Shown here one piece after another: positions 14,907 through 43,033 of a stretch of DNA of 64,000 nucleotides; within the stretch, counting starts at the first letter, position 1, and the number at the start of each line of letters is the position of its first letter. The stretch lies in the NCBI GenBank assembly GCA_938031185.1, contig CALHGX010000009.1, forward strand, positions 106,837 to 170,836, read 5' to 3'. Under the pieces are notes generated by a model. It was not told the DNA's origin. It saw only the letters and a list, made by a program, of their open reading frames with translations, and made no database searches. The translations under genes and the position numbers were made by a program. This DNA comes from an uncultured bacterium. GTDB lineage: Bacteria > Verrucomicrobiota > Kiritimatiellia > CAIKKV01 > CALHGX01.

Positions 14907-14917
14907 TCGGACTACCT

Positions 14918-15646: not shown

Positions 15647-15677
15647 ATCCGCCCCTCGTTCTTCCTCAGAACCTCGG

Positions 15678-16964: not shown

Positions 16965-16965
16965 C

Positions 16966-19934: not shown

Positions 19935-19969
19935 AAAGGATAATCATCGCAAAACAAAAAGGAGATGGC

Positions 19970-20551: not shown

Positions 20552-20589
20552 TTCCCTAAACCGCAAGACGAGCTAGTCGGCGTCGCCTC

Positions 20590-21525: not shown

Positions 21526-21635
21526 CCTTCCAACAGCCGGCCGTCCTTTCGGCCCGCCGGCCCGCAGGGTGGCGTCTGGGGCTTTGCTGCGTGTTTGTCT
21601 CCGCCCCCATTCGCTTTCGCGTAACAACGGCCGCC

Positions 21636-22514: not shown

Positions 22515-23530
22515 AAACGATACCGCTCCCGAATCGCTTCGGCATAGCATCGCCGCACCAATTCATGCCCCGCCATCGCGCTGATCATCATCAGCAGCGT
22601 CGAGCGAGGCAGATGAAAATTGGTGAGCATCGCATCCACGGCACGAAAACGAAACGGCGGACGAATAAACAACGCGCTGCGTCCGGTTTCGGCCCGCACC
22701 ATGCCGTTTTCATCCACAGCGGTCTCCAGAGCCCGGACCACGGTGCTGCCCACGGCCACGATCCGCCCCCCGGCTGCCCGGGTTTCCCGGATCGCACGCG
22801 CGGTTGCTTCCGGCACCACGTATCGCTCCGATTCCATGATGTGCTGTTCAATGTCGTCCGCCTTGACAGGCTTGAACGTCCCCGGCCCGACGTGCAAAGT
22901 GATAGCCACGCACCCTATGCCACGGCCCTCCAAGCTGCTCAACAACTCGCGGGTAAAATGGAGACCCGCCGTCGGCGCGGCTACCGCGCCCGGCTCCCGA
23001 GCGTATACCGTCTGATAGCGTGCCCGATCCTCGGCTTCGACCCGCGCTTGTTTACCCTTGCCCCGGCGAATATAGGGCGGCAGTGGCGTTGACCCCCGCG
23101 CTTCCAGGAAATCCAGCACCGATTGATTCAGCGGCCATTCCAGCAGTAGGCGTCCTCCTGAAACCCATTCGGCCACGCGAACACGAAGGCGGCCTTCCGC
23201 CAGAATCAGTACGCTTCCCGGCTTGGGGCGGCGCGCTCCGCCATACATCGCCTCCCACAGCCCGGGACGTCGTTCCTCCAGCATAAGTAGCTCGACCCGT
23301 CCCCCTGTGGCCTCCTTGCGGCCTTCCAAGCGAGCCGGTATCACCCGAGTGTCATTCACCACCAGCAAATCGGGCGCCCGCAACACTTCAGACAGGTCGG
23401 CCACGCGCCCGTGCCGCCACACGCCCGTTGCCCGGTCCACGATCATCATCCGGGCCTGGCTGCGCTCCTGCAGCGGATGCTGGGCAATCAATTCGGGCGG
23501 CAGATCATAGTCGAAATCGCTGGTCTTCAA
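22481..23530 (-). CDS. queA: S-adenosylmethionine:tRNA ribosyltransferase-isomerase
   Basis: Probable TTG start giving LKTSDFDYDLPPELIAQHP, plus GTFKPV and HFTRELL motifs. The first upstream ATG in this frame is at 23611. Confidence 0.9.
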   Translation of the reverse strand: MKTSDFDYDLPPELIAQHPLQERSQARMMIVDRATGVWRHGRVADLSEVLRAPDLLVVNDTRVIPARLEGRKEATGGRVELLMLEERRPGLWEAMYGGARRPKPGSVLILAEGRLRVRVAEWVSGGRLLLEWPLNQSVLDFLEARGSTPLPPYIRRGKGKQARVEAEDRARYQTVYAREPGAVAAPTAGLHFTRELLSSLEGRGIGCVAITLHVGPGTFKPVKADDIEQHIMESERYVVPEATARAIRETRAAGGRIVAVGSTVVRALETAVDENGMVRAETGRSALFIRPPFRFRAVDAMLTNFHLPRSTLLMMISAMAGHELVRRCYAEAIRERYRFYSFGDCMLIL

Positions 23531-23535
23531 TCCGC

Positions 23536-23952
23536 CTACTCCCCGATAATCTTGACCAGCACCCGCTTGCGCCGCATGCCGTCGAATTCTCCGTAAAAAA
23601 TTTGCTCCCACGGTCCGAAATCCAGTTGGCCGTGGGTGACCGCCACCACCACCTCCCGCCCCATGACGCTGCGTTTCAAGTGCGCGTCCGCATTATCCTC
23701 GCCCTGATTGTGGGCGTACTGCGAATGGGGATGTTCGGGCGCCAGCCGTTCCAGCCACTGTTCGAGGTCGGCGTGCAACCCATCCTCGTCGTCGTTGATG
23801 AACACGCTGGCCGTGATGTGCATGGCGTTGACCAGCGCCAACCCCTCCCGTATGCCGCTCTCGCGGAGACACGCTTCCACCTGCGGCGTAATGTTGAGGA
23901 ACCCCCGCCTTGTCGGCAACTGAAACCACAGTTCTTTGCGATAGTGTTTCAT
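23536..23952 (-). CDS. YjbQ/UPF0047 family protein (secondary thiamine-phosphate synthase-like)
   Basis: 138 aa. [27 protein letters not shown]...[18 protein letters not shown]. Confidence 0.8.
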
Positions 23953-23997
23953 CCGCTCCTCGACACCGGCCAGCTCTGCTGGTAGACTCCCAACATC

Positions 23998-24675
23998 ATG
24001 TCATCCCGCATGGTGCTGCCCTCGCTGGCTATTATAATTGCCCTCGCCACACTGGCAACGCTGGCGATGACGACCATATCATGGCTCTTGCCTGAACTGC
24101 TATATCAGCGTCATCGGGGCATGATCGAACCGATCGCCGCCCGTTACGACGTGCCGTCTCGGCTCGTGGGTGCCTTGATCTGGCAGGAAAGCCGCTACCG
24201 CGCCGATTCCGTCGGCCATTCGGGAGAAATCGGTCTGATGCAAGTGACGGTCGGCGCCGCCGACGAGTGGGCCCGACATGAGCGGATCCATTCGTCACTT
24301 TCGCCGGCTCTGCTGGATCCCGTCACCAACCTGATGGCCGGAACATGGTACCTGTCCCGCGCCCTCCGCTATTGGTCTGGTCATCCGGAGGCGCCGGCTA
24401 TTGCCCTGGCTGAGTACAATGCCGGCCGCGCCAACGCCCGCCGCTGGGCGGAGGCGGCCGACACCAAGCCCGATGCTTTCGTCCGCGCCATCACGTACCC
24501 CGCAACGCGCCAGTATGTCCGCGAGGTGCTGCAGAGATATCGCGCCCCGCTCCAAACGCGCCGGCCGTTTCGCCTCAGACGAACGCTGGCCCCGCCATCT
24601 CCATCCGTCCCCGCGAACAGCGCAGCAATCACTCCAACCGCTTTTCTCCGTGCAAACACGCTCAACTGTTGCTAA
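23998..24675 (+). CDS. Lytic transglycosylase (SLT domain) with an N-terminal signal/TM
   Basis: [25 protein letters not shown]...[13 protein letters not shown] are SLT catalytic motifs. Confidence 0.75.
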
Positions 24676-24692
24676 CAATCTTCGGGCCAACC

Positions 24693-25697
24693 ATGAAGAC
24701 GCATTCTGCCACACCGCCGTTCTTGTCCGTCGTTGCCCCGGTTTTCAACGAGGGTGAGTCCGTTGCGCCGCTGGTGGCCCGCCTGCACGAAACGCTCTCG
24801 ACCCTCAACCGCCCTTATGAGGTTGTGCTCGTGGATGACGGCAGCACGGACGGCACGTGGGAGCAGATGAAGCGGGCCGCCGAGATGTATCCCGCGATCC
24901 GATTGATCAGGCTGCGTCGAAATTTCGGTCAAACCGCCGCCATGAGCGCGGGCTTCCATGAAGCGCGCGGAGAGATTATCGTCACGCTCGACGCCGACCT
25001 GCAGAATGATCCGGCGGACATTCCCATCCTGCTGGCGGAAATGGAGCGCGGATACGATGTGGTCAGCGGATGGCGGCAGGATCGGCAGGATCCGTTCTTC
25101 TCCCGCCGTCTGCCTTCGATCATCGCTAACGCCTTGATCAGTCGCTTCACGGGCGTCTCGCTGCACGACTACGGCTGTACCCTCAAGGCCTATCGCAGCG
25201 AGATCGTGCGCGACATACACCTGTATGGGGAAATGCACCGCTTCATCCCGGCCCTTGCGAGCTGGGTCGGTGGCCGGATCAGCGAAGTGCCCGTGCGGCA
25301 TGCGCCCCGCCGGTTCGGCGTCTCCAAGTACGGCATGGGGCGCACCATCCGGGTCGTGCTCGACTTGATGACTGTCAAATTTCTGCTGCGTTACAGTACC
25401 CGACCTATTCATGTTTTTGGCCGCTGGGGCCTTTTCTGCGGCACGCTGGGGCTGGGTTTGTTGGTCTTTATGACGGCGGCTAACCTCTCCTACCGGATCT
25501 GGGGCACACGACTGGCAGCCGAGCTGATCAAACGCCCGTTCTGGGTCATGACGGCCTTCATGCTGGTTTTTTTCGGCATGCAGTTCATTTCCATGGGCCT
25601 GCTGGCTGAACTCCAAATTCGCACGTACCATGAGGCCCAGCGAAAGCCCATTTATGTGATTCGCGAAGTCTTTGAGTCCCCCTCGACTGCCATCTGA
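24693..25697 (+). CDS. GT2 family glycosyltransferase (polyprenyl-phosphate sugar transferase, ArnC/DPM1-like) with C-terminal TM helices
   Basis: LSVVAPVFNEGESV...VVLVDDGSTDGT...TLDADLQNDP (DxD) followed by two C-terminal TM segments. Confidence 0.85.
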   Translation: MKTHSATPPFLSVVAPVFNEGESVAPLVARLHETLSTLNRPYEVVLVDDGSTDGTWEQMKRAAEMYPAIRLIRLRRNFGQTAAMSAGFHEARGEIIVTLDADLQNDPADIPILLAEMERGYDVVSGWRQDRQDPFFSRRLPSIIANALISRFTGVSLHDYGCTLKAYRSEIVRDIHLYGEMHRFIPALASWVGGRISEVPVRHAPRRFGVSKYGMGRTIRVVLDLMTVKFLLRYSTRPIHVFGRWGLFCGTLGLGLLVFMTAANLSYRIWGTRLAAELIKRPFWVMTAFMLVFFGMQFISMGLLAELQIRTYHEAQRKPIYVIREVFESPSTAI

Positions 25698-25709
25698 TTT
25701 CTCTGGAAC

Positions 25710-26588
25710 ATGCTTGGCCTCGGATTCATCCTTCCCCCCGATCAGGCCGGCCGCGTCATGTTGGTCGGCGTTCTATATGCCATCCTGTTGGTCCTCGGCG
25801 TATGGGCCGCTTGGCAGCTGGGTTGGCGCCTGCTGAGCAACCCCGCGGCCTGGCACACCGCCGTGGAACGTTTGCGCGCCCGCCCATGGAATGGGCCGCG
25901 TGCCGGCGCCGTGCTTCTGATTCTGCTCACTACGCAAGGCCTTTTTCTCCTTGTCGGCCGCAAGCTCGCGCCGGCCGGCGGGCCGGAGGCCGGCGCGCCA
26001 GGCCTCCACCTCCTCGTCATGGAAAGCCTCGTGGTGCATCTGGGTGGATTGTTCCTGCTCGGGATGCTGCTGAGGCGCCTTCGCCTTGGATGGTCCGCTG
26101 CCTTCGGGATGGAGCGCAACGGCCTCGTGCGGCGGCTGGGCGGCGGCTCGCTCGCCTACCTCGCTTCGCTGCCAATGGTGTTTGCCGCCGCGCTGGTCTA
26201 CCAAGCCATTCTCCTTGCCCATGGGCATGAACCGGCCCTGCAGGACGTCGCCCGGCTGATGGCTTCCACCCAAAACCTCTGGTTTCGCCTCTACATGTTC
26301 TTTCTAGCCGCCTTCCTCGCGCCGCTTTTTGAAGAATGTGTTTTCCGCGGCGTGCTCCTTCCCGCGCTGGCTCGCGGCCTCGGCACGGGACCGGCCGTAT
26401 TCCTGACATCGGCGCTCTTCGCCGCCCTCCACTTTCACCTGCCCGCCTTCGCGCCCCTCGCCACCGTCGCTGTCGTCTTCTCTCTCGCCTACGTGTATAC
26501 GGGGTCCCTTTGGGTGCCCGTCGCAATGCACGGCCTTTTCAACGGCGTAAATCTGCTCTTCCTGTTCCTGGTCGGCCCGTTGCCATGA
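25710..26588 (+). CDS. CPBP family intramembrane glutamic endopeptidase (CAAX protease-like)
   Basis: Polytopic membrane protein with EECVFRG, FAALHF and HGLFN motifs. Confidence 0.75.
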   Translation: MLGLGFILPPDQAGRVMLVGVLYAILLVLGVWAAWQLGWRLLSNPAAWHTAVERLRARPWNGPRAGAVLLILLTTQGLFLLVGRKLAPAGGPEAGAPGLHLLVMESLVVHLGGLFLLGMLLRRLRLGWSAAFGMERNGLVRRLGGGSLAYLASLPMVFAAALVYQAILLAHGHEPALQDVARLMASTQNLWFRLYMFFLAAFLAPLFEECVFRGVLLPALARGLGTGPAVFLTSALFAALHFHLPAFAPLATVAVVFSLAYVYTGSLWVPVAMHGLFNGVNLLFLFLVGPLP

Positions 26589-26609
26589 ACGAACGATGGA
26601 ACCGTTCCC

Positions 26610-27791
26610 ATGCTTCACATCCGAACCATAAGATGGGTGCCGCAAAGCAACGAGGGCCTCATCCCCGGACAGATTGAATTCATTGACCAGACCCGCTTGC
26701 CGCTTGCGCTGCGCAAGGTGCGCACAGCCGATCCGGACGTGATCTTCAGGGCCATACGCGCCCTTCAAGTGCGCGGGGCGCCCGCCATCGGCGTGGCAGC
26801 CGCCATGGGGGTCGCCGCCGCTGCGCAGCGGGTCCGATCGAAGAGCGGTAACGCGGTGGCCGAAGCGGCCTGTCAAGCCGCCCGTCGTCTGGCGACCGCC
26901 CGCCCTACGGCCGTCAATCTGTTTCAGGCGCTCGACCGCATGCGGCGCACAGCCCGACGTTATCGGCGCCTGCCACCAGACCAGTTGAAGGAACTTCTCG
27001 CCAGTGAAGCCGTGGCTATTTGGCAGGAAGACCGTGATATGTGCCGCAGAATCGGCGAGAGCGGTTTCCCGTTGATTCGCAACGCGCGCCGGGTGCTGAC
27101 GCACTGCAATGCCGGCGCCTTGGCCACGGCCGGGCTTGGCACCGCCTTGTCGCCGCTTTACGTCGCCCGAGAGCAAGGGTGCCGAATCCATGTTTACGTG
27201 GACGAGACGAGGCCCCTGCTCCAAGGCGCCCGTCTGACGGCATGGGAACTGACTCGAGCCGACATTGAGGTTACGGTGATTTGCGACAATATGGCCGCAT
27301 GGCTCATGCAACGGGGGCAGATTGATGCGGTCCTGGTCGGAGCGGATCGCATCGCCCGTAACGGAGACACCGCCAACAAAATCGGAACCTACGGGCTGGC
27401 CGTGTTGGCCCACTTCCATGGAATTCCCTTCTACGTGCTGGCACCAAGCACCACCGTGGATTTTTCGGCAAGGGCGGGACGTGACATCCCCATCGAAGAG
27501 CGCGGATCGGAAGAGGTTTCCATGATGGCCGGTCGCCGATTGATCCCCCGTGCGGCCACAGCCATCTCCCCGGCCTTCGACGTGACGCCCGCCCGTCTTA
27601 TTACGGCCGTTGTCTGCGAACGCGGCGTTCTCAAACCGCCATATACGCGTTCCTTGAGCCGTGCGCTGGAAAAACGGGAGCGACAGCAAAAAAACTGTAG
27701 TCCTTCTTTGGCGGGCGGCCCCCTCCCGAGAGACAGGCCCAAAGCGCCCGATCAACGGCCGGGCCACCAGGTCATGCCGTTGCAGGACTGA
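26610..27791 (+). CDS. mtnA: S-methyl-5-thioribose-1-phosphate isomerase (eIF-2B alpha/beta/delta family)
   Basis: LQVRGAPAIGVAAAMGVA...TVNLFQAL...THCNAGALAT...VGADRIARNGDTANKIGTY. Confidence 0.8.
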   Translation: MLHIRTIRWVPQSNEGLIPGQIEFIDQTRLPLALRKVRTADPDVIFRAIRALQVRGAPAIGVAAAMGVAAAAQRVRSKSGNAVAEAACQAARRLATARPTAVNLFQALDRMRRTARRYRRLPPDQLKELLASEAVAIWQEDRDMCRRIGESGFPLIRNARRVLTHCNAGALATAGLGTALSPLYVAREQGCRIHVYVDETRPLLQGARLTAWELTRADIEVTVICDNMAAWLMQRGQIDAVLVGADRIARNGDTANKIGTYGLAVLAHFHGIPFYVLAPSTTVDFSARAGRDIPIEERGSEEVSMMAGRRLIPRAATAISPAFDVTPARLITAVVCERGVLKPPYTRSLSRALEKRERQQKNCSPSLAGGPLPRDRPKAPDQRPGHQVMPLQD

Positions 27792-30700
27792 AGCGAGCGC
27801 ATCGTTCGCAGCGCTTGCGCGTGTTGTTCAGGTTCGCCGGTAATTGTCAACTGGCGAATGCCCATTCCAAGCAGCGGCGTCAAATCTCGCACCGGGGCCC
27901 CTCTCATGAGCAACACCCGCAGGGGCATCCCCTTCAAAGGCCGCACATCCGATACCTGGGTGTTCTCGATGTCCAAATGCCACAGGGGCATTCCTTCCAA
28001 CACTGATATATCCCGCACGGGTATGTGCGCCAGAGAAAGCTTCTCGATCGCCATCCCTTTCAATACCTTCACACTGTCGAAACTCACCTTCGTTCCCGAC
28101 AGGTCCAGCGTCTTGAGCGGCATGCCTGCCAGCACCGAAATATCCCGCACCGCCGTGCCGTTGAGGTCAAGATGCTCCAAGGGCATGCCCCGCAACGGCG
28201 ACAAATCAACCACGGGGGTGCGAGCCAAGTTCAACGACGTCATCGGTTTGCCGGCCAGCACAGACAGATCTTTGAACTGCGTGTCGCTCAAGTCAGCCCG
28301 CCGCAGAGGCATTCGGCGCAGCATCTGAAAATCATGCGTCTTGCATCCCGCCAGATACAACCCCTCCAATGGCATATCCCGAAGCACATTCAAATCGCGA
28401 AACGCCGTCTGCCGCGCGCTGAACTCGCGCAGTTTCATCCCCGCCAGAAAAGTGAAATCTGTGACTTTCAAGCCGTCCAGTTGAAGTTTGGCCAAGTCCT
28501 TCCCGCGCAACACACTCAAATCCCGCAACGCCGTCCGCCCCACATTGAGCTCACGCGCCGAAACAGGGGCCAGCAGGCTGGCATCTCGGACATCGCTGCC
28601 TTCCAGCGAAAGCATTTCGAGCTTGAGTCCCTGCAGCGCGTTCCAATCATCTGCCGTGCAACCGTTCAACGAGAAATGCGTCAGCGACGGAAACTGGCGG
28701 GCCGCCGCCAGATTGCGAATGGAGCAGTTCGAAAGGTGAAGGTGGCGAAGATCAAGTCCCGCCAAGTGGCTCAGGTCTATGCGGGCCGGATCACGGCCCG
28801 GCACGGAAATGTGCAGCCTTTTCAACGTGGCGGCCTTGGCCAGAGGGGTCAGCTTCCCAATGACGGCCGATTGAATGGTCAATGCATGCACACGACCGTC
28901 AGGCGTCGCCTCGCCCCATACGTCGCTTGGCGTCAGCCCCGGATTCTCGGCACAAAGCGCTTCTACCAGCCGCTCCGCGACCGTCGCCTCGCCGTCCGCT
29001 CCGTCGCCCTGCAGTTGAACGTGCGCGGAGTTTGGCGCAAGAGACGCAATCCGCCCCGCCGCCGCTTCCAAGGCCTGCAACACAAGTTCCGCTTCCTCGG
29101 CAAACCGGCTGTGGCTGTATGTCTTCCGATACCGCGCGACCGCCGCCTTGATTTCCCGGGCTGTGGCCGCGTCCATCTCCGCCAGGGATGCCGCTCGAAC
29201 CCATTCGCGCAAGTCGGCCGACATGGTCTCCACCCGGGCCATTCGCGCAAGCTCCTCCAAAGCGGTCCGGGCTTTTTCGTCTAAATCTTTACTGGATCTT
29301 CGTGCCATTTCTTCCTGCAGCGCCCCAGCCAGCATAGTGCCCGCCTGCTCGAACAGCTTCGCAGCCTGATCCGTACGCCCCATGCGGGCCAGTGTCAGTC
29401 CAGCCGCCAATGCCGCTTCGGGCGCAGGGGAATCCATAAGCCGCGCCAGTTTGTCTCCTGGCGACAAATCGGCGACATCAAGCCATATTTCGGCGCTGGC
29501 ATCCGGTATTTGCCCGCACAGTTTTCGTCCCTCCACCCGCCTGATGATCAAGTTCAGCGGCGGCCCCTGCACCCGCTGCACCCTAACCATGCGGTTCGTC
29601 AACGCAAGAAACACTTCCATGATCCTGTCATCGGGATGTGATGCGCCTTCGATCAGCTTCAGAACAGCCTTCAGGTCTTCCGCCGTTTCGCCGCTCGCAT
29701 CCTGCGCCGCACTCAAGGCATTGCGAGCTGCCGCCAGATCGCCATCCAGGGCCATGGCGGCAGCCTTACGCAACGCCGATTCCCATGCGCGGTTTTGACC
29801 CTCGCGCTGACTGCTTTCCTCGCTCCGTTCCCGAAGCGCCGCCGCCCGTGTTTTCCGATCAGCCGCGCTGTCGTCCGCGCCCGGGCCCTGATATGTTTCC
29901 AGCCGAGTGGCAGCCGCAGCCCACTCACCCCGTTCGGTTAGCCGTTCAACCTCGTCATTGAGCTCTGCCAGCGCGGCCTGCCGTTTCCGGTCCGCCGCCT
30001 CCTTGAGCCGATCCGCCGCTTCCAGCAACGCCGGCGGCGCCTGCTCCGCCCGCAGGCGTGTCATCAACGACTCCAGCGCCTCAACCGCCCGGTCATGTTC
30101 CTCCGCCGCTCCATCCAGCCGCCGCCGGATTTCATCGATCTGCGCGCGTATGGAAGCGTCGCTTGAAACAAGCGCTTCCGGTTCGGTCCCGGCTGGCTCG
30201 GGCGGGGGCTGTCCTTGCGTCGCCGCTGTCGGTAAGCCAGCCGCCCCTTTCATCTCTGAAGAAGCGATCGGCGCCGCCCCATCAGCATGTCTTCCCCAGC
30301 GTTCCCACACCTGCCATGCCGCGGCGATTGCCGCCAACAAGGCGACGACCGTCGCCATGATCCGCTTGGCGGTCCGTCCCGGCTGCAGACGGCGCATCAA
30401 GGCCGCCCGGCGGCGGCACCGCGCCATGGTGCTGGCCCCTTCCGGAAGGGGCGCCTCTAGTGGCAGATGTCCTGAGCGAACTTGCTGAACGTCCACGATC
30501 ACGGCATGCCAGTCCGCCGGCCGCGCCGTCCGATCTTTGGCCAGCATCCGCTCAAGCAGGCAGGCCATGCCTAAAGACACCCCCGGCGCCGCCTCCATCA
30601 CGTCGGGCACCTGCGCCTTCACCTGCCCCTCAAGCGCCTCCGCATCCGAACGATCCTGGAACATCCGCCGGCCGGTCAGCATGTGATACAAGGTCGCGCC

Positions 30701-31357
30701 CAAGGAATAGATGTCGCTGCGCTGGTCCAAGTCTTGTGCGCCTTCGCACTGCTCCGGCGACATGTAGCTCGGCGTGCCGCAGATTTCCTCGACGCCTTCC
30801 TCCATGCCCTTGGTCTCGCCGACCCGCGAAATGCCGAGGTCGGCCACCTTGATGGTGCCGTCTTGATCCACCATGATGTTGTCCGGCTTGATATCGCAGT
30901 GAATCAAGCGCGCCGTCCGCCAGGCGTACTCAAGGGCCTGCGCCACGGATTCCGCCACGGCCAATGCGTCCGCTTCTCCAATGCGCCCCTTGCGGCGGAT
31001 CCATTCCCCCACGCTGTACCCGGCCACGTATTCCATCACAAAAAAGCACGTGCCGTCTTGCTCGCACGCGTCATAGACCTGCACCAGGCATGGGTGCTTG
31101 AGTTTGGCGGCCACCCGAGCCTCTTCAAACAGACGCCGCACCTCGTCGGGCCGCCGCGCAAACTCCGGCAGGAGCTGCTTGAGCGCCACGATCCGATCGA
31201 GCGAAAGCTGGCGGGCCTTCCACACCACAGCCATGCCGCCCTGCCCGACGCGCTCGAGGATTTCGAATCCTCGCAGCGAAATGTGCGCCTCTCCCACCGT
31301 GGGTTCTCCCGGCAAATCAATACCAATCCACCGCGGCGCTCTCGCGCGGCGCCGCAT
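27752..31357 (-). CDS. Hanks-type Ser/Thr protein kinase with a TM segment, a long Ala/Glu/Arg-rich coiled-coil and a C-terminal leucine-rich-repeat domain
   Basis: N-terminal kinase subdomains (VALK, HCDIKPDNIMV, DLGIS, GTPSYMSPE), then hydrophobic IMATVVALLAAIAAAW, then about 15 tandem ~22-aa LRRs with a recurring LxGMPLxxLDLxxTxVxD motif. 1201 aa. Confidence 0.9.
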   Translation of the reverse strand: MRRRARAPRWIGIDLPGEPTVGEAHISLRGFEILERVGQGGMAVVWKARQLSLDRIVALKQLLPEFARRPDEVRRLFEEARVAAKLKHPCLVQVYDACEQDGTCFFVMEYVAGYSVGEWIRRKGRIGEADALAVAESVAQALEYAWRTARLIHCDIKPDNIMVDQDGTIKVADLGISRVGETKGMEEGVEEICGTPSYMSPEQCEGAQDLDQRSDIYSLGATLYHMLTGRRMFQDRSDAEALEGQVKAQVPDVMEAAPGVSLGMACLLERMLAKDRTARPADWHAVIVDVQQVRSGHLPLEAPLPEGASTMARCRRRAALMRRLQPGRTAKRIMATVVALLAAIAAAWQVWERWGRHADGAAPIASSEMKGAAGLPTAATQGQPPPEPAGTEPEALVSSDASIRAQIDEIRRRLDGAAEEHDRAVEALESLMTRLRAEQAPPALLEAADRLKEAADRKRQAALAELNDEVERLTERGEWAAAATRLETYQGPGADDSAADRKTRAAALRERSEESSQREGQNRAWESALRKAAAMALDGDLAAARNALSAAQDASGETAEDLKAVLKLIEGASHPDDRIMEVFLALTNRMVRVQRVQGPPLNLIIRRVEGRKLCGQIPDASAEIWLDVADLSPGDKLARLMDSPAPEAALAAGLTLARMGRTDQAAKLFEQAGTMLAGALQEEMARRSSKDLDEKARTALEELARMARVETMSADLREWVRAASLAEMDAATAREIKAAVARYRKTYSHSRFAEEAELVLQALEAAAGRIASLAPNSAHVQLQGDGADGEATVAERLVEALCAENPGLTPSDVWGEATPDGRVHALTIQSAVIGKLTPLAKAATLKRLHISVPGRDPARIDLSHLAGLDLRHLHLSNCSIRNLAAARQFPSLTHFSLNGCTADDWNALQGLKLEMLSLEGSDVRDASLLAPVSARELNVGRTALRDLSVLRGKDLAKLQLDGLKVTDFTFLAGMKLREFSARQTAFRDLNVLRDMPLEGLYLAGCKTHDFQMLRRMPLRRADLSDTQFKDLSVLAGKPMTSLNLARTPVVDLSPLRGMPLEHLDLNGTAVRDISVLAGMPLKTLDLSGTKVSFDSVKVLKGMAIEKLSLAHIPVRDISVLEGMPLWHLDIENTQVSDVRPLKGMPLRVLLMRGAPVRDLTPLLGMGIRQLTITGEPEQHAQALRTMRSLQSCNGMTWWPGR

Positions 31358-31382
31358 TCCGCAGCAGAAACTTTCCGCTCGT

Positions 31383-31559
31383 TCAGCGCAGCAAGACGCC
31401 GATCGTAATCCCGAGCGCGATGAAAGCCAAGTAAACCAGCGATCCCATGGCGCGGAACTTGAACAGGATCAGATTCACTTCAACCGGCGCCCGGCTAAAA
31501 ATCAGCACCAGCACCGACAAGGCCATGATCAAGAGGGCATACAACACACGCTTTTGCAT
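31383..31559 (-). CDS. Small (58 aa) two-TM membrane protein, possibly LapA/DUF1049-like; absent from the ORF table (<60 aa)
   Basis: Reverse translation MQKRVLYALLIMALSVLVLIFSRAPVEVNLILFKFRAMGSLVYLAFIALGITIGVLLR. It fills the gap between coaC and the kinase gene. Confidence 0.4.
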   Translation of the reverse strand: MQKRVLYALLIMALSVLVLIFSRAPVEVNLILFKFRAMGSLVYLAFIALGITIGVLLR

Positions 31560-31577
31560 ACCGGCTCCTATTCCTCA

Positions 31578-32159
31578 TTACCGGCGACAGCCGCGCCCCA
31601 GCGCAGCACTGACCGCCCGCAAAATGTCCTCTACGTCCGCCAGGCGCCCCTTGGCTTGATAGCCGCACGCCAAATCACCCGAGCCCACATCAACAATCCT
31701 CGCGCCACGGCGACGCAGCACGGCCACATTGTCCCGCGTAGCGGCATGGGCCCACATCCGATCGTTCATGGCAGGGGCGATCACCAGCGGCGCCGTTGTC
31801 GCCAGGGCCGTCGTACTCAGCAGATCATCCGCAAACCCATGAGCCAATTTCGCGATCATGTTGGCGGTGCAGGGGGCCACCACCAACACATCGGCCATTT
31901 CAGCCCAGGAAACATGGTCCGGCCGCCAGACCGCCCCTTCGGTAAACAAATCGCGCCCCACCGGATGCCGCGACAGCGTCAGAAACGTCTGCTCGCCAAC
32001 GAAACGCGTCGCGCAGTCGGTCATGATCACATAGACCTCCCATCCGCGCTCGATCATCCGCCGGGTCAGTTCCGCAGCCTTGTACGCGGCAATGGACCCG
32101 GTTACGCCCAGCACCACTCGCGGCGGGTGCGACTTCCGCAATGCCCCGCTCTTTTTCAT
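31578..32159 (-). CDS. coaC: Phosphopantothenoylcysteine decarboxylase-type flavoprotein (HFCD family), stand-alone CoaC half
   Basis: VVLGVTGSIAAYKAAELTRRM...APAMNDRMW...PCTANMIAKLAHGFADDLL. Only 193 aa, with no CoaB ligase domain. Confidence 0.75.
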   Translation of the reverse strand: MKKSGALRKSHPPRVVLGVTGSIAAYKAAELTRRMIERGWEVYVIMTDCATRFVGEQTFLTLSRHPVGRDLFTEGAVWRPDHVSWAEMADVLVVAPCTANMIAKLAHGFADDLLSTTALATTAPLVIAPAMNDRMWAHAATRDNVAVLRRRGARIVDVGSGDLACGYQAKGRLADVEDILRAVSAALGRGCRR

Positions 32160-32848
32160 GGTCGGCCTCGTTTCCCAACCGATTGGTTTTCAACGCGGCA
32201 ATGGGCCGCCTCAACAATCGCCTTCAACTGCATAAAGGCCGTCTCCAGGCGATCATTAATCACAAGGAAAGAATACTCTTTCCACCGCCGCAACTCCCGC
32301 CGGGCGTTGCGCAGCCGGCGCGCAATCACCGCCGGACTGTCAGCCTTCCGTGCCGTCAGGCGACTTTTCAAGACGCGTAGCGACGGAGGCGCCACAAAGA
32401 TATCCACGAACCCCCGACGGAGCAAATCATTTCGCGGTGCGTGCCGTGCGGCACGTCGAATTTGAGCGGCCCCCTGCACGTCTATGTCCATTAAGACATC
32501 GCGACCCGCCCGCAGCGCCCGCCATACGGGGGCGCGCAATGTCCCATAGTGATGCCCATGCACGACGGCGTGCTCCAGGAACTCGCCCCGCCGCAACCGT
32601 CGCGCGAATTCCTCCGGTGCGAGAAAATGGTAGTCTCGGCCGTTGCGCTCGCCCGGCCGGGGCGGTCGCGTGGTGCAGGATACGGAATATGTCATCGCCG
32701 GGCACGCCTTCAAGAGGCGCTCGCACAACGTGGTCTTCCCCCCGCCAGAAGGGGCCGAGACCACCACCAGCAAGGCGCGCCGCACCGGCGGCGGTGCCAC
32801 ATTGTCGCGCCGCCGCCGTGCTCGCTCCACATTGGGTTTATTCGACAT
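32156..32848 (-). CDS. gmk: Guanylate kinase (with an N-terminal extension of ~30 aa, or a later start)
   Basis: LLVVVSAPSGGGKTT P-loop, YSVSCTTRPPRPGERNGRDYHF, and HAVVHGHHYGT. Confidence 0.9.
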   Translation of the reverse strand: MSNKPNVERARRRRDNVAPPPVRRALLVVVSAPSGGGKTTLCERLLKACPAMTYSVSCTTRPPRPGERNGRDYHFLAPEEFARRLRRGEFLEHAVVHGHHYGTLRAPVWRALRAGRDVLMDIDVQGAAQIRRAARHAPRNDLLRRGFVDIFVAPPSLRVLKSRLTARKADSPAVIARRLRNARRELRRWKEYSFLVINDRLETAFMQLKAIVEAAHCRVENQSVGKRGRP

Positions 32849-33740
32849 TTTGCGCCTGCTCCCTTACACGCTCCACTTCTGCCTTGAATTCGATCACAAG
32901 CCGGGTCATCGGCAGGTAATTGGCTTTGGCGCCCACCGTATTGATTTCCCGCATTAGTTCCTGCGAGAGGAAATCGAGCGTTCGACCCACCGGCGCTGTC
33001 TGTTCCAGAAGCGCTAACGCCTGCTGGAGATGGCTGTCCAGCCGGGTCAGCTCTTCCGAGATATCCGACCGTTCCGCCAGCAAGAGCAATTCCTTCGCGC
33101 CGTTCCTGAAAACCGCAGCGGCCGACTCGCCCAGCGCAAGCACCCTCTTTTTCAGTTGCCGGCGGGCCTCGGCTGCCGCTCGAGGCGACAGCGCCCGCAA
33201 CCGGCGCACCATCCCAGCCATTGCGGCCAGGCGGGCGCGCAGATCAGCCGCCAGCATCCGCCCCTCTTTCCGCCGCATCCGATCAAGACGCCGCAGGGCC
33301 TGATCGAGCGCGTCCTCTAGGCAAGGCCGAAACAATCGCGCATCCCATTCGAATTCCCTGGTCTGCGCCACGCCGGGCAATTGCAGCAACAGGGAAGCGC
33401 TCAAATCGTCCTTCAGGCCCAACTGGCGCGCCACCAATCGCAGCCGCCGAACCTGAGCCGCCGCCAAAACCCGATCGAGGCGCAAGTCGCCCGCCGCCGT
33501 GTTCCCCTGTTGTCCGGACGTCACCGTGCAACTTACGCACCCACGCGAAAAGTCCTGTTGTACCCTTTCGACTACCAACGACTCCATCAGGGCCAAGCCT
33601 CGCGGCAACGACACTCGAACATCCAATTGCTTGCGGTTCACGGAGCTGATTTCCACGTCCGCCCAATACGATCCCCGCCGCGCGGCCCCGTGGCCATATC
33701 CCGTCATGCTCTTCACACTCATGGCGCCTCCACTTCGCAA
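32838..33740 (-). CDS. YicC/YloC family stress-induced protein
   Basis: MTGYG... start region and a C-terminal REINTVGAKAN motif. Lies in conserved synteny with gmk. Confidence 0.8.
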   Translation of the reverse strand: MRSGGAMSVKSMTGYGHGAARRGSYWADVEISSVNRKQLDVRVSLPRGLALMESLVVERVQQDFSRGCVSCTVTSGQQGNTAAGDLRLDRVLAAAQVRRLRLVARQLGLKDDLSASLLLQLPGVAQTREFEWDARLFRPCLEDALDQALRRLDRMRRKEGRMLAADLRARLAAMAGMVRRLRALSPRAAAEARRQLKKRVLALGESAAAVFRNGAKELLLLAERSDISEELTRLDSHLQQALALLEQTAPVGRTLDFLSQELMREINTVGAKANYLPMTRLVIEFKAEVERVREQAQNVE

Positions 33741-33746
33741 ATCCGT

Positions 33747-34881
33747 CTAAGACGCTTTCGCCTTCGCGGCGGCCGCCTTCGCGTGCTTCAGGTACGCCAG
33801 AACGAAACGGTCGAGTTTGCCATCGAGTACCGCTTGCACATTGGAGGTTTCCTCGTCGGTTCGATGATCCTTGACCATTGTATAGGGTTGAAGCACATAG
33901 GAGCGAATCTGATTGCCCCAAGCAATCTCGCCTTTTTCGCCGTAAAAACGTTCCATGTCTTTCCGTTGGCGGTCGAGTTCCATTTCATACAGTCGGGCCA
34001 TCAGCAGCTTCATGGCCTTGGCGCGGTTGTTGTGCTGCGAGCGCTCGGCTTGACACGAAACCACTATGCCCGTCGGCAAATGCGTAATGCGCACCGCGGA
34101 ATCGGTCTTGTTGACGTGCTGCCCGCCCGCGCCGCTCGACCGATAGGTATCCACCCGCAAGTCGGCTTCATTAATCTCGACGCGAATATCCTCGGTGAGT
34201 TCGGCCACCACATCCAGTGACGCGAACGATGTGTGCCGTCGCTTGTTGGCGTCGAACGGGCTGATGCGCACAAGCCGGTGCACCCCCCGCTCGGACTTGA
34301 AGAGGCCAAAGGCCATCGGCCCTCGAACCGCCAGAGTGGCGCTCTTGATGCCGGCTTCATCGCCCGGCTGCACATCAAGCATCTCCACATTGAAATGACG
34401 GTCTTCGGCGTAGCGCCGAAACATCCGAAGCAGCATCGCCGCCCAATCGCAGGATTCCGTACCGCCGGCGCCGGCATGCAGGGTCAGATAGGCGTCATTC
34501 GGGTCGAGCCGCCCATCAAGCAGGGTTTGCATCTCCAGGGCTTCCCGCGCTTCCTCGGCGCGCTGAAGTTCCCGACTCGCGTCTTCCAGGGCCTGCGTCC
34601 GATGCCGGCCTTCCGGCTCCGCTTCCGCCAGCTCGATCAGCACGCCGGCCTCTTCCACGGCGCGTTCGATATCGCCGAAGGGCGCTAGCAGCCCCTTGAT
34701 CTGATTGGCCTGCTCCAGAATGGCCTTCGCCTTGTTCTGGTCGTTCCAGAAGCCCGGCAACGCGATCTGCTGTTCAAGATCATCCAAGACCTGCCGCCGC
34801 GAGGCGACGTCAAAGATAACCTCTCATTTCTTGAACCCGTTGGCGTGCCGTCTCCAAACGGGCTTTTACTTCCTCAATCAT
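33747..34881 (-). CDS. prfB: Peptide chain release factor 2, expressed by programmed +1 ribosomal frameshift
   Basis: Frame 0 from the ATG at 34881 encodes [23 protein letters not shown] and then TGA (34812-34810). The +1 frame continues DVASRRQVLDDLEQQIALPGFWNDQ... into the body of RF2 (SPFDANKRRHTSFASLDV, GAGGQHVNKTDSAVRITHLP). Confidence 0.9.
34809..34827 (-). other. prfB +1 frameshift site: SD-like AGAGGU, 3-nt spacer, CUU UGA C
   Basis: Minus-strand sequence ATG AGA GGT TAT CTT TGA C is the canonical autoregulatory RF2 recoding cassette. Confidence 0.85.
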
Positions 34882-36542
34882 GTGGAAATGTCCTCCATTG
34901 CCATTCTCCGAACCGTTGACGGAGTCTTTCGTCTGGCCTGCGCCAACGCAAGCAAAAACCCCAGCACCGCCGCCCCCGCGCAGGGACGGCCCAGCATCCA
35001 GTCCCCCCGCCGCGTGTACGGCGAGAGCCTTTGCCCGTCGGGCGGCGTCGGAATCCACCACACAGCCGCCATCGGCAAAGGAGGACGCCCTGCGCCGTTC
35101 ACCGTGGCCTCATGGATCCGACCGGCCGGGTCTATCCAGCAACTGATGCCCGTATTAGCGCAGCGCACCAAGGGAACGCGGTTTTCCACCGCCCGGAAGA
35201 CCGAATGGCTGAGGTGCTGGACCGGCGCCGCTGTTTCGTCAAACCACGCGTCATTCGTTTGATTCACCAATAGGCGAGCGCCCTCCTTCACAAACCGCCT
35301 TGCCAGCGAGGCCACGGTGTCCTCAAAACAGATCAGCACCGAAAACGACGTGCGGCTGACACGAAAAACGGTCGGCCGTTTCCCCGGCGTGCAACTCCAG
35401 CCGAGAGGGGCCAGCCGGCGAAGCCACTTGATTCTGTTGTCCAGCGGGATGTACTCGCCAAAAGGCACCAAATGCTGTTTGTCGTAACGGCCCAACGGCC
35501 CTTCGGGTCCGACCAAAAAAGAGGCATTGAAAGACTCCCATTCCTGCGGGTTGATCGAAACCATGTCCATGGTTCCGATCAGCAACGGCACCCCGTTGGC
35601 CGCCAATCGCGAAACCAGTTGCGCTGAAGGGCCCGGCGCGCGAAGACAATCCGGCGTGGCCGTCTCCGGCCACACAATGAGCTCGGGCCGGGGCCGGGCC
35701 TCCAATAGTTGCCGCGACAGCTCTTCCAAACGGGTCAAAATGAAATCCGCCTGCGACTCCGTCCACTTCTGCTCCTGCGGTATCGCGGGTTGAACGACAC
35801 CCACACCCAGCACGGCTCCAGGCTCCGGCAACGATCGCAAACGCATGATGCCGGCCTGAAGGGCGATCGCCACGGCCATCATGGCTACAAAAAGCTCGAC
35901 ATGCGGGCGATAGGGACGCCCCGGCCGCCACGGCCAGTACCGTCGGAGCGTTAGCGCCAACGCTGCATTGCCCAGCGCCACCAGAACTGACACGCCGTAG
36001 ACCCCCCATGAGTCAGCCGTCTGAATCAGCGCCGGATTGCGGAACTGGGAGACGCCAAGGGCGTTCCATGCAAAGCCCTGAAAAAGATTGGAGCGAATGT
36101 ATTCGAACCCCACCCATGCCACGGGCCATCCGCAGAGCAGGACCAGCCGCCCCGTCAAGCCTTCTTCAGTCGCCACACGGCGCAACCAGCTTGCCGTGAC
36201 GGAAAAAAGCCCCGTGTACATGGCGCAATAGGCCGACAGCGCGAACCAGCCGATCGCGACCACGACTGTTGGCGCCGGAGACGTGACCGTCAAGCGAAGC
36301 AACCACCGCAGGGTGAGCAGCCAGAAAGACAGCCCCGCCAGCAGGCCGAGCCTCCATGCGCGCCGCGGCGGCGCGGTCCCAACCGCGAGCAGCAAGGGCA
36401 CCAGCGCCACCCAAGCCAGCCCCGCCTGTTCGGCGGGGGGAAAGGCCGCCGCCATTAGTACGCCTGACAAGACGGCGCCGGCCGCGGCCCATGTCCCCGT
36501 GGAACGCCCCCCTCGGATCCAAACGCCTATTGGCCCGGCCAT
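34878..36542 (-). CDS. lnt: Apolipoprotein N-acyltransferase
   Basis: N-terminal polytopic TM region plus C-terminal CN-hydrolase domain ([18 protein letters not shown]). The ATG at 36542 overlaps the secA stop (TGATG). The ORF-table start 36590 lies inside secA. Confidence 0.85.
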
Positions 36543-39500: not shown

Positions 39501-39562
39501 CGCATCCGCCGGATGTCGCGCTGGTTCTTCGTGCCGATGATCTTCTGCAACAACCACTGCAT
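36542..39562 (-). CDS. secA: Preprotein translocase ATPase SecA
   Basis: 1006 aa with DEAD-like motor domains and a C-terminal zinc-binding [14 protein letters not shown] tail. Confidence 0.95.
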
Positions 39563-39578
39563 GCGTCTTCCCGCCCTT

Positions 39579-42787: not shown

Positions 42788-42979
42788 GGACTGACTCCCT
42801 CACATCGCCAACAAATCGGCGTCGAAGTAAACCACATTTCACCTTATTGGAAAAGGAAATCGCTCTTTCCGCCGCGATATCCCGCCACCCGAAATCTCTC
42901 TCCAATGCAGGCTCTTGTTGCTCAACCACGCGTCAACGCGCACAACCGCATCGTGGTCCTGACTGCTTTATTGCCGGTT

Positions 42980-43013: not shown

Positions 43014-43033
43014 TGGGTGCAGGAGGAAAGAAC

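What the first reader, a model, noticed from the sequence alone, without database searches (positions are those of the whole stretch)
27752..31357. 1201-aa membrane Ser/Thr kinase whose sensor domain is a coiled-coil plus ~15 leucine-rich repeats
An N-terminal Hanks-type kinase with all catalytic motifs present is followed by a single hydrophobic helix and ~450 residues of Ala/Glu/Arg-rich predicted coiled-coil. The C-terminal ~330 aa form about 15 regular 22-residue LRRs (consensus LxxLxGMPLxxLDLxxTxVxDxSVL). Topologically this mirrors a PASTA kinase, with an LRR ectodomain in place of PASTA repeats. It is the bacterial inverse of plant LRR receptor kinases. The repeat regularity and length suggest a ligand- or surface-binding sensor.
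Basis: seen in the sequence. Interest (0 to 1): 0.65.

Follow-up and report, generated by a model that had tools for sequence, protein, structure and literature searches.

The report
Membrane Ser/Thr kinase with LRR ectodomain
This gene encodes a real single-pass membrane protein kinase whose outer part is a previously undescribed helical domain followed by a 16-unit leucine-rich-repeat horseshoe. It belongs to a widespread but unstudied family in Kiritimatiellia/Lentisphaerota-type bacteria, so it is an interesting variant of a known kind of bacterial receptor kinase rather than something entirely new.

Summary
The ORF (27752..31357, minus strand) is real. It has a PknB-like Hanks kinase domain (Pfam E 5.6e-50), one hydrophobic helix (333-351) and a C-terminal LRR domain (InlA E 4e-19).

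Three details of the finding need correcting:
- **Repeat period:** it is 21 aa, not 22.
- **"Coiled-coil" region:** it models confidently (pLDDT 93, pTM 0.81) as a folded helical domain with an embedded small beta-barrel. It has no significant match in PDB or Pfam.
- **Catalytic loop:** it reads HCD, a non-RD kinase. All 120 of the closest homologues share this.

More than 100 full-length homologues (31-37% identity) exist. The named ones come from Kiritimatiellia, Lentisphaerota and Verrucomicrobiota MAGs.

Synteny is conserved: CoaC-like flavoprotein, then a 58-aa two-TM ORF, then the kinase, convergent with MtnA, a Rce1-like gene and a GT2 gene. Some syntenic orthologues lack the LRR altogether. 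Other kinase-TM-LRR proteins occur in related bacteria.

The most likely function is an N-in/C-out receptor Ser/Thr kinase that senses a periplasmic or envelope component. The ligand and the substrates are unknown. I found no experimental study of the family.

Verdict: observation confirmed, interpretation partly supported, a new variant of a known kind, moderate interest.

The parts
27752..31357 (-). Whole CDS of the kinase. It is 1201 aa from the ATG at 31357. The probable true start is the GTG at 31297, giving 1181 aa.
   Evidence: ORF listing. Homologues start about 22 residues later. GGAGAA lies just upstream of the GTG at 31297.
30515..31267 (-). Hanks-type Ser/Thr kinase domain, residues 31-281. 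It is a non-RD kinase with an HCD catalytic loop.
   Evidence: Pfam Pkinase E 5.6e-50. NCBIfam PknB-type kinase part, 249.8 bits. PDB PknB 4.5e-38. HCD in 120 of 120 closest homologues.
30362..30514 (-). Cytoplasmic juxtamembrane linker, residues 282-332. It is Arg-rich and carries a conserved Ser309-Thr310 within the GAST motif.
   Evidence: Sequence. S and T are at least 90% conserved across 92 sequences.
30305..30361 (-). Single predicted transmembrane helix, residues 333-351.
   Evidence: It is the only KD peak above 1.6 (1.98). An equivalent peak (1.6-3.1) is present in all 120 homologues.
30167..30304 (-). Disordered Pro/Ala/Gly-rich spacer, residues 352-397.
   Evidence: AF2 pLDDT below 50 for model residues 1-46.
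29042..30166 (-). Family-specific helical domain, residues 398-772. It shows weak TPR-like hints and carries an inserted small beta-barrel.
   Evidence: AF2 pLDDT 93.1, pTM 0.81. No significant PDB fold match (best E 0.07). No PDB-sequence or Pfam match. Among 1.84 billion representatives it is found almost only in this kinase family (148 hits).
29477..29590 (-). Small 4-strand beta-barrel, residues about 590-627, inserted in the helical domain. The fold looks Sm/SH3-like.
   Evidence: DSSP strands in both models. Local Foldseek match to archaeal Hfq 5dy9 (50 aa, rmsd 1.3, E 0.55, not significant on its own).
27755..28987 (-). LRR domain, residues 791-1201. It has an N-cap (helix plus hairpin), 16 LRR strands/units of mostly 21 aa, and a C-cap.
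   Evidence: Pfam LRR_4. InlA and Roco sequence hits. Repeat register. AF2 strands every 21 residues. Foldseek 5il7 and 1o6v at E 1.3e-13.
31383..31559 (-). Conserved 58-aa two-TM small ORF directly upstream of the kinase (25 nt before the ATG at 31357). It is probably co-transcribed with the kinase.
   Evidence: ORF. Exactly 58 aa and 47-62% identical, at the same position, in 7 related loci. Called as a gene in L022 and L023. Sub-threshold LapA_dom match.
31578..32159 (-). CoaC-like flavoprotein gene. It is a conserved upstream neighbour and is listed as context only.
   Evidence: Pfam Flavoprotein 2.1e-33. Synteny.
26610..27791 (+). MtnA-like (IF-2B family) gene. It is a conserved convergent neighbour that overlaps the kinase 3' end by 40 nt. 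Listed as context only.
   Evidence: Pfam IF-2B 5.9e-82. Adjacent to the kinase in L001/2, L005, L006, L008, L012, L016, L017, L019, L022 and L023.

Best explanation
The gene encodes a single-pass, N-in/C-out receptor-type Ser/Thr kinase of a PVC-group bacterium. By synteny the organism is most likely a Kiritimatiellia member.

**Layout.** A PknB-like but non-RD (HCD) kinase domain sits in the cytoplasm, tethered by a basic juxtamembrane segment with a conserved Ser-Thr pair. One TM helix crosses the inner membrane. On the other side there is a roughly 45-residue flexible spacer, then a family-specific helical domain with a small inserted beta-barrel, a short linker, and a 16-unit, 21-residue-period LRR horseshoe.

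**Proposed mechanism (inferred).** The periplasmic module binds a periplasmic or envelope macromolecule. This changes the receptor's oligomeric state or location and so controls phosphorylation of cytoplasmic substrates. In this it resembles PknB/StkP, with a different sensor.

**What is shown and what is inferred.** The domain composition, the fold predictions, the family conservation and the synteny are shown. The topology, ligand gating, the envelope-related role and any partnership with the upstream 58-aa membrane protein are inferred.

**Confidence by step.** Architecture and topology about 0.85. Ligand-regulated receptor kinase about 0.55. Envelope or growth homeostasis role about 0.25.
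For: **Kinase.** Kinase domain with conserved catalytic residues. Closest solved relatives are PknB, StkP and PknA.

**Membrane helix.** One strong hydrophobic segment at the same place in 120 of 120 homologues. In the window protein it has 9 K/R in the 20 residues before it (sequence).

**Ectodomain.** It models with mean pLDDT 89.6. The LRR part exceeds 95, and the middle domain alone reaches pLDDT 93.1 and pTM 0.81. The LRR solenoid is confirmed by Foldseek.

**Divergence pattern.** More than 100 full-length homologues exist. Kinase domains are 50-60% identical, but the middle domain only 21-30% and the LRR 29-42%. This is the usual pattern for receptor ectodomains.

**Inheritance and context.**
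- One copy in the window.
- Conserved housekeeping or envelope-type synteny: flavoprotein, 58-aa membrane ORF, kinase, then convergent MtnA, Rce1-like and GT2.
- Neighbour divergence is similar to that of the kinase domain, which fits vertical inheritance.
- SecA, Lnt and an SLT transglycosylase lie nearby.
Against: - No topology predictor or experiment was available. At family level the positive-inside bias is weak (3.07 vs 2.74 K+R).
- No ligand-binding patch is conserved. The LRR concave-face positions have a top-residue frequency of only 0.25-0.39.
- Syntenic orthologues lack the LRR entirely. The LRR therefore cannot be essential to the core function.
- No FHA or PP2C partner was found in the 64-kb window.
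- Gene neighbourhood differs in other lineages.
- Non-RD kinases are often not regulated through activation-loop phosphorylation, so ligand gating may not follow the PknB model.
Confidence: 0.6

Rival explanations
1. The protein is a localisation or scaffold kinase rather than a ligand-gated receptor. In this reading the periplasmic helical domain and LRR act as a spacer or anchor that tethers the kinase to an envelope structure such as peptidoglycan, an outer-membrane protein complex or a division or pilus machine. The non-RD kinase is constitutively active, and only its position is controlled.
For: - The HCD (non-RD) loop is invariant in the 120 closest homologues.
- The LRR is dispensable in the syntenic short forms.
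- The LRR concave face is not conserved.
- The middle domain shows weak TPR-like and BamD-like hints.
- The same LRR type is combined with TPR and other periplasmic modules in many proteins of related bacteria.
Against: No binding partner has been identified. The flexible linkers and the fast-evolving ectodomain fit a sensor equally well. This reading and the best explanation differ only in whether binding changes kinase activity.
Confidence: 0.25
2. The protein is an anti-phage or conflict-system kinase, related to PD-T4-6, MADS or Stk2-type defence kinases. Its LRR would recognise an invader component and trigger phosphorylation-mediated growth arrest.
For: - The kinase domain hits PADLOC PD-T4-6 models (E 2.5e-73) and mad6, and NCBIfam MADS6.
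- LRRs act as sensors in NLR-like immune proteins, and non-RD kinases are typical of plant pattern-recognition receptors. Both points come from general knowledge; papers on these topics are listed.
Against: - The PADLOC and NCBIfam matches cover only the generic kinase domain. They are far below the family cutoff in NCBIfam (123.9 vs 460).
- The LRR is predicted to lie outside the cytoplasm.
- The neighbours are housekeeping genes such as SecA, Lnt, RF2, Gmk, CoaC and MtnA, not a defence island.
- Conserved synteny and vertical-looking divergence across orders are atypical for defence genes.
Confidence: 0.05
3. The protein is an internalin-like adhesin or host-interaction protein. The LRR would be displayed to bind a eukaryotic or foreign cell-surface protein, with the kinase as a secondary feature.
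For: The best sequence and structure matches of the LRR include Listeria internalins A, B and H.
Against: - The scores are far below the internalin family cutoffs (43.6 vs 1600).
- No signal peptide, Ig-like inter-repeat region or wall anchor was detected.
- The anchor is an inner-membrane helix, which in a diderm keeps the LRR under the outer membrane.
- The named family members are MAGs of Kiritimatiellia, Lentisphaerota and Verrucomicrobiota, not known pathogens.
Confidence: 0.03
4. The protein is entirely cytoplasmic. The hydrophobic segment is buried or peripheral rather than membrane-spanning, and the LRR binds cytoplasmic partners as in Roco proteins.
For: The best structural match of the LRR is the cytosolic C. 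tepidum Roco protein. The family-level positive-inside signal is weak.
Against: - A 19-residue hydrophobic stretch scoring KD 1.6-3.1 is conserved at the same position in 120 of 120 homologues.
- It is flanked by a basic segment and followed by a disordered Pro/Ala-rich spacer.
- No Roc or COR domain is present.
Confidence: 0.04

Closest known systems
PASTA-domain receptor Ser/Thr kinases (PknB of M. tuberculosis, StkP of S. pneumoniae, PrkC/Stk1; NCBIfam NF033483)
   Same: It has an N-terminal cytoplasmic Hanks kinase that is closest in sequence to PknB, StkP and PknA. It also has a juxtamembrane linker, one TM helix and a repeat-built extracytoplasmic C-terminal module. The overall working logic is probably the same.
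   Different: It has no PASTA repeats and scores 249.8 bits against a cutoff of 450. The ectodomain is a novel helical domain plus an LRR. The kinase is non-RD (HCD), whereas PknB-type kinases are RD kinases activated by loop phosphorylation (general knowledge). The host is a diderm PVC-group bacterium, not a Gram-positive or actinobacterium.
Plant LRR receptor kinases, especially the non-RD pattern-recognition receptors (FLS2, EFR, XA21)
   Same: It is a single-pass membrane protein that couples an extracytoplasmic LRR solenoid to a cytoplasmic Ser/Thr kinase. The catalytic loop lacks the Arg before the catalytic Asp, as in plant PRR kinases (papers listed).
   Different: The domain order is reversed, with the kinase N-terminal and no signal peptide. 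The LRR period is 21 aa and the type is internalin/SDS22-like, not the 24-aa plant-specific type. The kinase groups with bacterial PknB-like kinases, not RLK/Pelle. An extra 375-residue helical domain sits between the TM helix and the LRR. This is analogy, not homology of the architecture.
Internalin / SDS22-like LRR domains (InlA, InlB, InlH) and the LRR of the Chlorobium tepidum Roco protein
   Same: These are the best sequence and structure matches of the LRR domain. The repeats are short with a conserved Asp and a hydrophobic ladder.
   Different: The period is 21 aa rather than 22. There is no internalin cap plus Ig-like region plus wall anchor, and no Roc-COR GTPase module. The repeat carries its own G-M-P-L signature.
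Other kinase-TM-LRR and LRR_4-containing proteins of related bacteria (Planctomycetota, Gemmataceae, Lentisphaerae, Verrucomicrobiota), and the LRR-containing kinase noted in P. aeruginosa by Krupa and Srinivasan 2005
   Same: They carry the same LRR_4 repeat type. Several metagenomic proteins show a kinase motif, a hydrophobic peak and then an LRR. The kinase-plus-LRR combination in bacteria has been recorded since 2005 (PMC1262709).
   Different: Those proteins are shorter. Where the motif is visible they mostly have HRD or HLD loops, and they lack the family-specific helical middle domain. None was found to be experimentally characterised.

Membership tests
Hanks-type (eukaryotic-like) Ser/Thr protein kinases, Pfam PF00069 | Kinase domain profile match above the curated threshold | tested here: met
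   170.6 bits against a cutoff of 31.7, covering residues 31-281.
Hanks-type (eukaryotic-like) Ser/Thr protein kinases, Pfam PF00069 | Catalytic residues: the VAxK Lys, the catalytic-loop D-x-K-x-x-N, the DFG/DLG Asp and the APE/SPE motif | tested here: met
   VALK57-60, HCDIKPDN153-160, DLG173-175 and SPE200-202. All are at least 90% conserved in 92 sequences.
Hanks-type (eukaryotic-like) Ser/Thr protein kinases, Pfam PF00069 | Arg before the catalytic Asp (the RD subclass) | tested here: not met
   HCD in the window protein and in 120 of 120 closest homologues. It is therefore a member of the superfamily but of the non-RD type.
Hanks-type (eukaryotic-like) Ser/Thr protein kinases, Pfam PF00069 | Phosphotransfer activity | not testable with these tools
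   This needs an in vitro kinase assay.
PASTA kinases (Stk1/PknB family, NCBIfam NF033483) | Whole-protein score above the equivalog cutoff | tested here: not met
   249.8 bits against a cutoff of 450. The match covers only the kinase part, residues 31-304.
PASTA kinases (Stk1/PknB family, NCBIfam NF033483) | Extracellular PASTA repeats | tested here: not met
   No PASTA family appears among Pfam hits up to E = 1.
PASTA kinases (Stk1/PknB family, NCBIfam NF033483) | Single TM helix between the kinase and the sensor | tested here: met
   One KD peak at 333-351, conserved in homologues. This rests on hydropathy only; no dedicated predictor was available.
Leucine-rich repeat proteins (Pfam LRR clan; SDS22/internalin-like class) | LRR profile match above threshold and a repeated LxxLxLxx(T/N)x(V/L) core | tested here: met
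   LRR_4 at 53.6 bits against a cutoff of 27. Sixteen units in register.
Leucine-rich repeat proteins (Pfam LRR clan; SDS22/internalin-like class) | Curved solenoid fold with a parallel beta-sheet | tested here: met
   In the AF2 model the 10-residue-block mean pLDDT across the repeats is mostly 93-98. Strands recur every 21 residues. Foldseek matches 5il7 and 1o6v at E 1.3e-13. This is a prediction, not a solved structure.
Leucine-rich repeat proteins (Pfam LRR clan; SDS22/internalin-like class) | 22-residue period of the SDS22/internalin class | tested here: not met
   The period is 21 in 11 consecutive units, with one unit of 23.
Class 1 internalins (NCBIfam NF033189 / NF033188) | Family score above the cutoff, with signal peptide, cap, Ig-like inter-repeat region and wall anchor | tested here: not met
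   43.6 bits against 1600, and 37.6 against 1050. The N-terminus is a kinase, not a signal peptide.
Roco proteins (LRR-Roc-COR, with or without a kinase) | Roc GTPase and COR domains | tested here: not met
   No Roc or COR family appears among Pfam or NCBIfam hits. Only the LRR resembles the Roco LRR.
Plant LRR receptor-like kinases | Signal peptide, then extracellular 24-aa plant-type LRRs, then a TM helix, then a C-terminal RLK/Pelle kinase | tested here: not met
   The order is reversed. The period is 21 aa. The kinase is nearest to bacterial PknB, StkP and PknA.
Defence kinases (PADLOC PD-T4-6, MADS mad6) | Match beyond the generic kinase domain, and a defence-island or system context | tested here: not met
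   The hits cover residues 26-318 only. NCBIfam MADS6 scores 123.9 against 460. The neighbours are housekeeping genes.
LapA / DUF1049 (Pfam PF06305), considered for the upstream 58-aa ORF | Profile match above the gathering score | tested here: inconclusive
   13.7, 17.0 and 21.2 bits in three orthologues against a cutoff of 28. The same region matches each time.

The most novel reading that the evidence does not exclude
This family could be the master envelope or growth-sensing receptor kinase of Kiritimatiellia and Lentisphaerota. It would be a functional counterpart of the PASTA kinases in a diderm PVC-group lineage. It would use a previously undescribed periplasmic helical/beta-barrel domain, extended in most lineages by an LRR horseshoe, and it would work together with the co-conserved 58-aa LapA-like membrane protein. 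A bolder version treats the invariant non-RD kinase plus LRR as a convergent bacterial pattern-recognition receptor for foreign periplasmic molecules. I rate that version at about 0.05 on its own.
Probability: 0.2. Interest if true: 0.65.

Novelty: new variant of a known kind. Interest (0 to 1): 0.4.

Why it matters
Bacterial receptor Ser/Thr kinases are understood almost entirely through PASTA kinases of Gram-positive bacteria and actinobacteria. What such kinases sense in diderm bacteria is largely unknown.

This family offers a tractable case for three reasons:
- It appears to be vertically inherited across Kiritimatiellia and Lentisphaerota-type bacteria.
- Its ectodomain is predicted with high confidence.
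- The ectodomain contains a domain with no solved or curated relative, plus an LRR module that some lineages have and others lack.

That natural presence/absence contrast, the invariant non-RD catalytic loop and a co-conserved micro-membrane protein give concrete handles for experiments. If the envelope-sensing role were shown, the PknB paradigm would extend to a new sensor chemistry and a new phylum. If not, it remains one more uncharacterised domain combination among bacterial kinases.

Tried and rejected
**Searches that returned nothing or failed.**
- The genome-contig scan with the single protein found no relatives.
- The exact-sequence contig look-up for the window protein returned nothing. 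Taxonomy therefore rests on synteny with named MAGs.

**Leads that gave no result.**
- The search for FHA or PP2C partners in the window, by tblastn with examples from related loci, found none.
- No DNA-level tandem repeat underlies the LRR.
- No promoter or terminator signal rose above chance around the gene.
- The positive-inside rule at family level was uninformative.
- A first attempt to trim the middle domain from alignment A2 failed because stray end residues were misaligned. It was redone from a full-length alignment.

**Readings rejected.** A plain coiled-coil, an internalin, a Roco protein, a PASTA kinase and a defence kinase were each considered and rejected; see the membership tests.

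**Literature.** Searches found no study of a TM Hanks kinase with an LRR ectodomain in bacteria.
Full report
**1. The observation**

A 1201-aa ORF occupies 27752..31357 on the minus strand.
- Pfam places a protein kinase domain at residues 31-281 (E 5.6e-50) and LRR_4 repeats in the C-terminal part (53.6 bits, cutoff 27).
- NCBIfam matches only the kinase portion of the PknB/Stk1 model (249.8 bits, cutoff 450). It also gives weak internalin-type LRR matches at 958-1165.
- The last 382 residues hit internalin A (4.3e-19) and the Chlorobium tepidum Roco LRR (1e-17) among PDB sequences.
- Hydropathy analysis finds one segment above 1.6, at 333-351. It is preceded by an Arg-rich stretch.
- The catalytic motifs are VALK, HCDIKPDN, DLG and SPE.

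**2. Corrections to the description**

*Repeat period.* The period is 21 residues, not 22. Units start at 913, 934, 955, 976, 997, 1018, 1039, 1060, 1104, 1125 and 1146, with one 23-residue unit at 1081.

*Ectodomain model.* An AlphaFold2 model of residues 352-1201, built on a 92-sequence alignment, has mean pLDDT 89.6. It shows:
- a disordered spacer (352-397);
- helices (400-585);
- a small four-strand beta unit (about 590-627);
- more helices (633-772);
- a short disordered linker (774-788);
- an N-capped LRR domain with 16 short strands spaced 21 residues apart, up to 1171, followed by a C-cap.

*LRR fold.* Foldseek against PDB gives the Roco LRR (5il7) and InlA (1o6v) as best matches, both at E 1.3e-13. 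The repeat region therefore does model as an LRR solenoid.

*The supposed coiled-coil.* Modelled alone (398-790), this region reaches pLDDT 93.1 and pTM 0.81. That indicates a compact folded domain rather than a simple coiled-coil.
- It has no significant structural match in PDB. The best E is 0.07, to TPR proteins at TM about 0.15. The beta unit locally resembles an Sm/Hfq barrel.
- A 12-sequence profile finds nothing significant in PDB sequences or Pfam, only sub-threshold TPR and BamD-like hints.

*Start codon.* Homologues begin about 22 residues downstream of the annotated ATG. A GTG at 31297 is preceded by GGAGAA. The protein is probably 1181 aa.

**3. The family**

A search of 5.8 billion proteins returned more than 100 full-length relatives. 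They are about 1090-1220 aa, 31-37% identical and cover about 97% of the query, with the same Pfam composition. Where named, they come from Kiritimatiellia/Kiritimatiellae, Verrucomicrobiota and Lentisphaerae MAGs and are annotated only as "protein kinase".

All 120 listed have the HCD loop and one hydrophobic peak at about 290-340.

A full-library phmmer search with the middle domain alone found only 148 representatives (46 at E of 1e-10 or better). Almost all matches lie at position about 380-750 of proteins that are either about 1000-1250 aa or about 700-800 aa.

The short class lacks the LRR.
- L017 encodes a 709-aa kinase-TM-middle-domain protein in the same gene neighbourhood.
- Sixteen such short forms were counted.
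- A few distant members carry HRD.

In the full-length alignment the following are at least 90% conserved: the kinase motifs, a juxtamembrane Ser-Thr pair (S309/T310 in a GAST motif), a few middle-domain residues (Y489, G491, R501) and the cap Asn residues (N805, N1193).

Within the LRR, the scaffold positions are conserved. The concave-face positions are not, with a top-residue frequency of 0.25-0.39.

Domain divergence is uneven. Kinase domains are 50-60% identical, the middle domain 21-30% and the LRR 29-42%.

**4. Context**

*In the window.* The gene follows SecA, Lnt, RF2, YicC, Gmk and a CoaC-like flavoprotein on the same strand. It is convergent with an MtnA-like gene, overlapping it by 40 nt. 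A Rce1-like protease, a GT2 glycosyltransferase and an SLT transglycosylase lie beyond. No second kinase, LRR, FHA or PP2C gene was detected in the 64 kb.

*Conserved block.* The arrangement is flavoprotein, kinase, then convergent MtnA, Rce1-like and GT2. It recurs in L005, L008, L016, L017, L019, L022 and L023. The kinase/MtnA convergence also appears in L001/L002, L006 (Victivallales) and L012 (Lentisphaerales). Other lineages have different neighbours.

*Small upstream ORF.* Between the flavoprotein gene and the kinase lies a 58-aa two-TM ORF (31383..31559, minus strand).
- It is exactly 58 aa and 47-62% identical in seven related loci.
- It has a reproducible but sub-threshold LapA_dom match.
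- It accompanies both long and short kinase forms.

*Other checks.*
- Neighbour identities (MtnA 56-61%, CoaC 58-64%, GT2 64-72%) resemble that of the kinase domain. This fits vertical inheritance of a single-copy gene. It also places the window organism, by inference, in or near Kiritimatiellia.
- No promoter or terminator signal exceeded chance.
- The LRRs are not recent DNA duplications.

**5. Mechanism**

*What is shown.*
- An apparently catalytically competent PknB-like non-RD kinase.
- A conserved hydrophobic helix.
- A confidently folded two-module C-terminal region joined by flexible linkers.

*What is inferred.*
- A 310-residue ATP-dependent N-terminal domain without a signal peptide stays in the cytoplasm. 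The single helix therefore puts the C-terminal 850 residues in the periplasm.
- There the helical domain and LRR bind a macromolecule and control kinase output by clustering or positioning, as in PknB/StkP.
- The fast-evolving ectodomain, the polar concave LRR face and the flexible spacers fit a receptor.
- The optional LRR and the non-conserved concave face mean that the middle domain is the core extracytoplasmic element. The LRR is a lineage-variable extension.
- Because the kinase is non-RD, regulation probably does not depend on activation-loop phosphorylation. The conserved juxtamembrane Ser-Thr is a candidate autophosphorylation or docking site.
- An envelope or growth-related role is suggested only by context and conservation.

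*Rivals.*
- A constitutive kinase positioned by a scaffold-like ectodomain (0.25).
- A defence kinase (0.05). PADLOC and NCBIfam hits cover only the generic kinase domain, and the context is housekeeping.
- An internalin-like adhesin (0.03).
- A fully cytoplasmic protein (0.04).

**6. Comparison and novelty**

The protein works like a PASTA kinase, but it fails membership because it has no PASTA repeats and scores below the cutoff.

It resembles plant non-RD LRR receptor kinases only by analogy. The domain order is reversed, the LRR class differs and the kinase lineage is bacterial.

Its LRR is internalin/SDS22-like with a 21-residue period and a GMPL signature. The same LRR_4 type is common in related bacteria, combined with TPR, kinase, FGE-sulfatase, lectin and other modules. 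Other kinase-TM-LRR proteins with HRD or HLD loops exist.

A kinase-plus-LRR combination in bacteria was already listed in 2005 (PMC1262709). A 2023 cross-kingdom survey of transmembrane kinases discusses LRR-type kinases only for plants and oomycetes (PMC10463195). I found no experimental work on such a bacterial protein.

What is new here:
- a defined, widespread, conserved family;
- an invariant non-RD loop;
- a middle domain with no solved or curated relative;
- natural LRR presence/absence;
- a co-conserved 58-aa membrane protein.

**7. Verdict**

This is a new variant of a known kind, namely transmembrane Hanks-type receptor kinases. Interest is 0.4: a solid lead for specialists in bacterial signalling, not a surprise that overturns expectations.

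Noticed in passing
window 31383..31559 (-): A conserved 58-aa ORF with two hydrophobic helices lies 25 nt upstream of the kinase ATG. It is exactly 58 aa and 47-62% identical in L005, L008, L016, L017, L019, L022 and L023. It always sits between the CoaC-like gene and the kinase, and it has a sub-threshold LapA_dom match.
   Followed up: partly
L017 8852..10981; also L016, L019: Syntenic orthologues of about 709-770 aa have the kinase, the TM helix and the helical middle domain but no LRR. Their stop codon abuts the convergent MtnA gene.
   Followed up: partly
window 27752..27791: The convergent MtnA-like ORF (26610..27791, +) overlaps the kinase 3' end by 40 nt. Its last roughly 40 residues are not shared with homologues, which end near residue 350. 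A similar 15-nt overlap occurs in L017.
   Followed up: no
window 31297..31357: The annotated ATG start gives a 22-residue Arg-rich N-terminal extension that is absent from homologues. A GTG at 31297, preceded by GGAGAA, is the more likely start.
   Followed up: partly
window 17703..19934 (-): A 743-aa ORF has GreA/GreB domains only in its last roughly 160 residues (581-726). The roughly 580-residue N-terminal part gave no Pfam hit at E of 0.001 or better.
   Followed up: no
window 20631..22514 (+): A 627-aa ORF has a UvdE UV-endonuclease domain only at 323-575. The N-terminal roughly 320 residues are unassigned and may belong to a separate upstream gene (ORF 20590..21525) or to an over-long ORF call.
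   Followed up: no
L001 1571..3283 and L023 1970..3520: FHA-domain proteins lie within 2.5-7 kb of the kinase in two related loci. One is a Tad-type T2SSE ATPase with an FHA domain and the other is a 516-aa FHA protein. L021 also has Tad pilus genes upstream of the kinase. None was found in the window.
   Followed up: partly
L003/L004 17481..21748: About 4 kb from the LRR kinase in this lineage there is an 813-aa protein with two kinase domains, next to a 606-aa PP2C phosphatase.
   Followed up: no
window 1..64000: GC skew is negative in every 2-kb bin across the whole window (cumulative -4.04), and most of the genes examined between 15 and 45 kb lie on the minus strand. This is consistent with the window lying on one replichore.
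   Followed up: no
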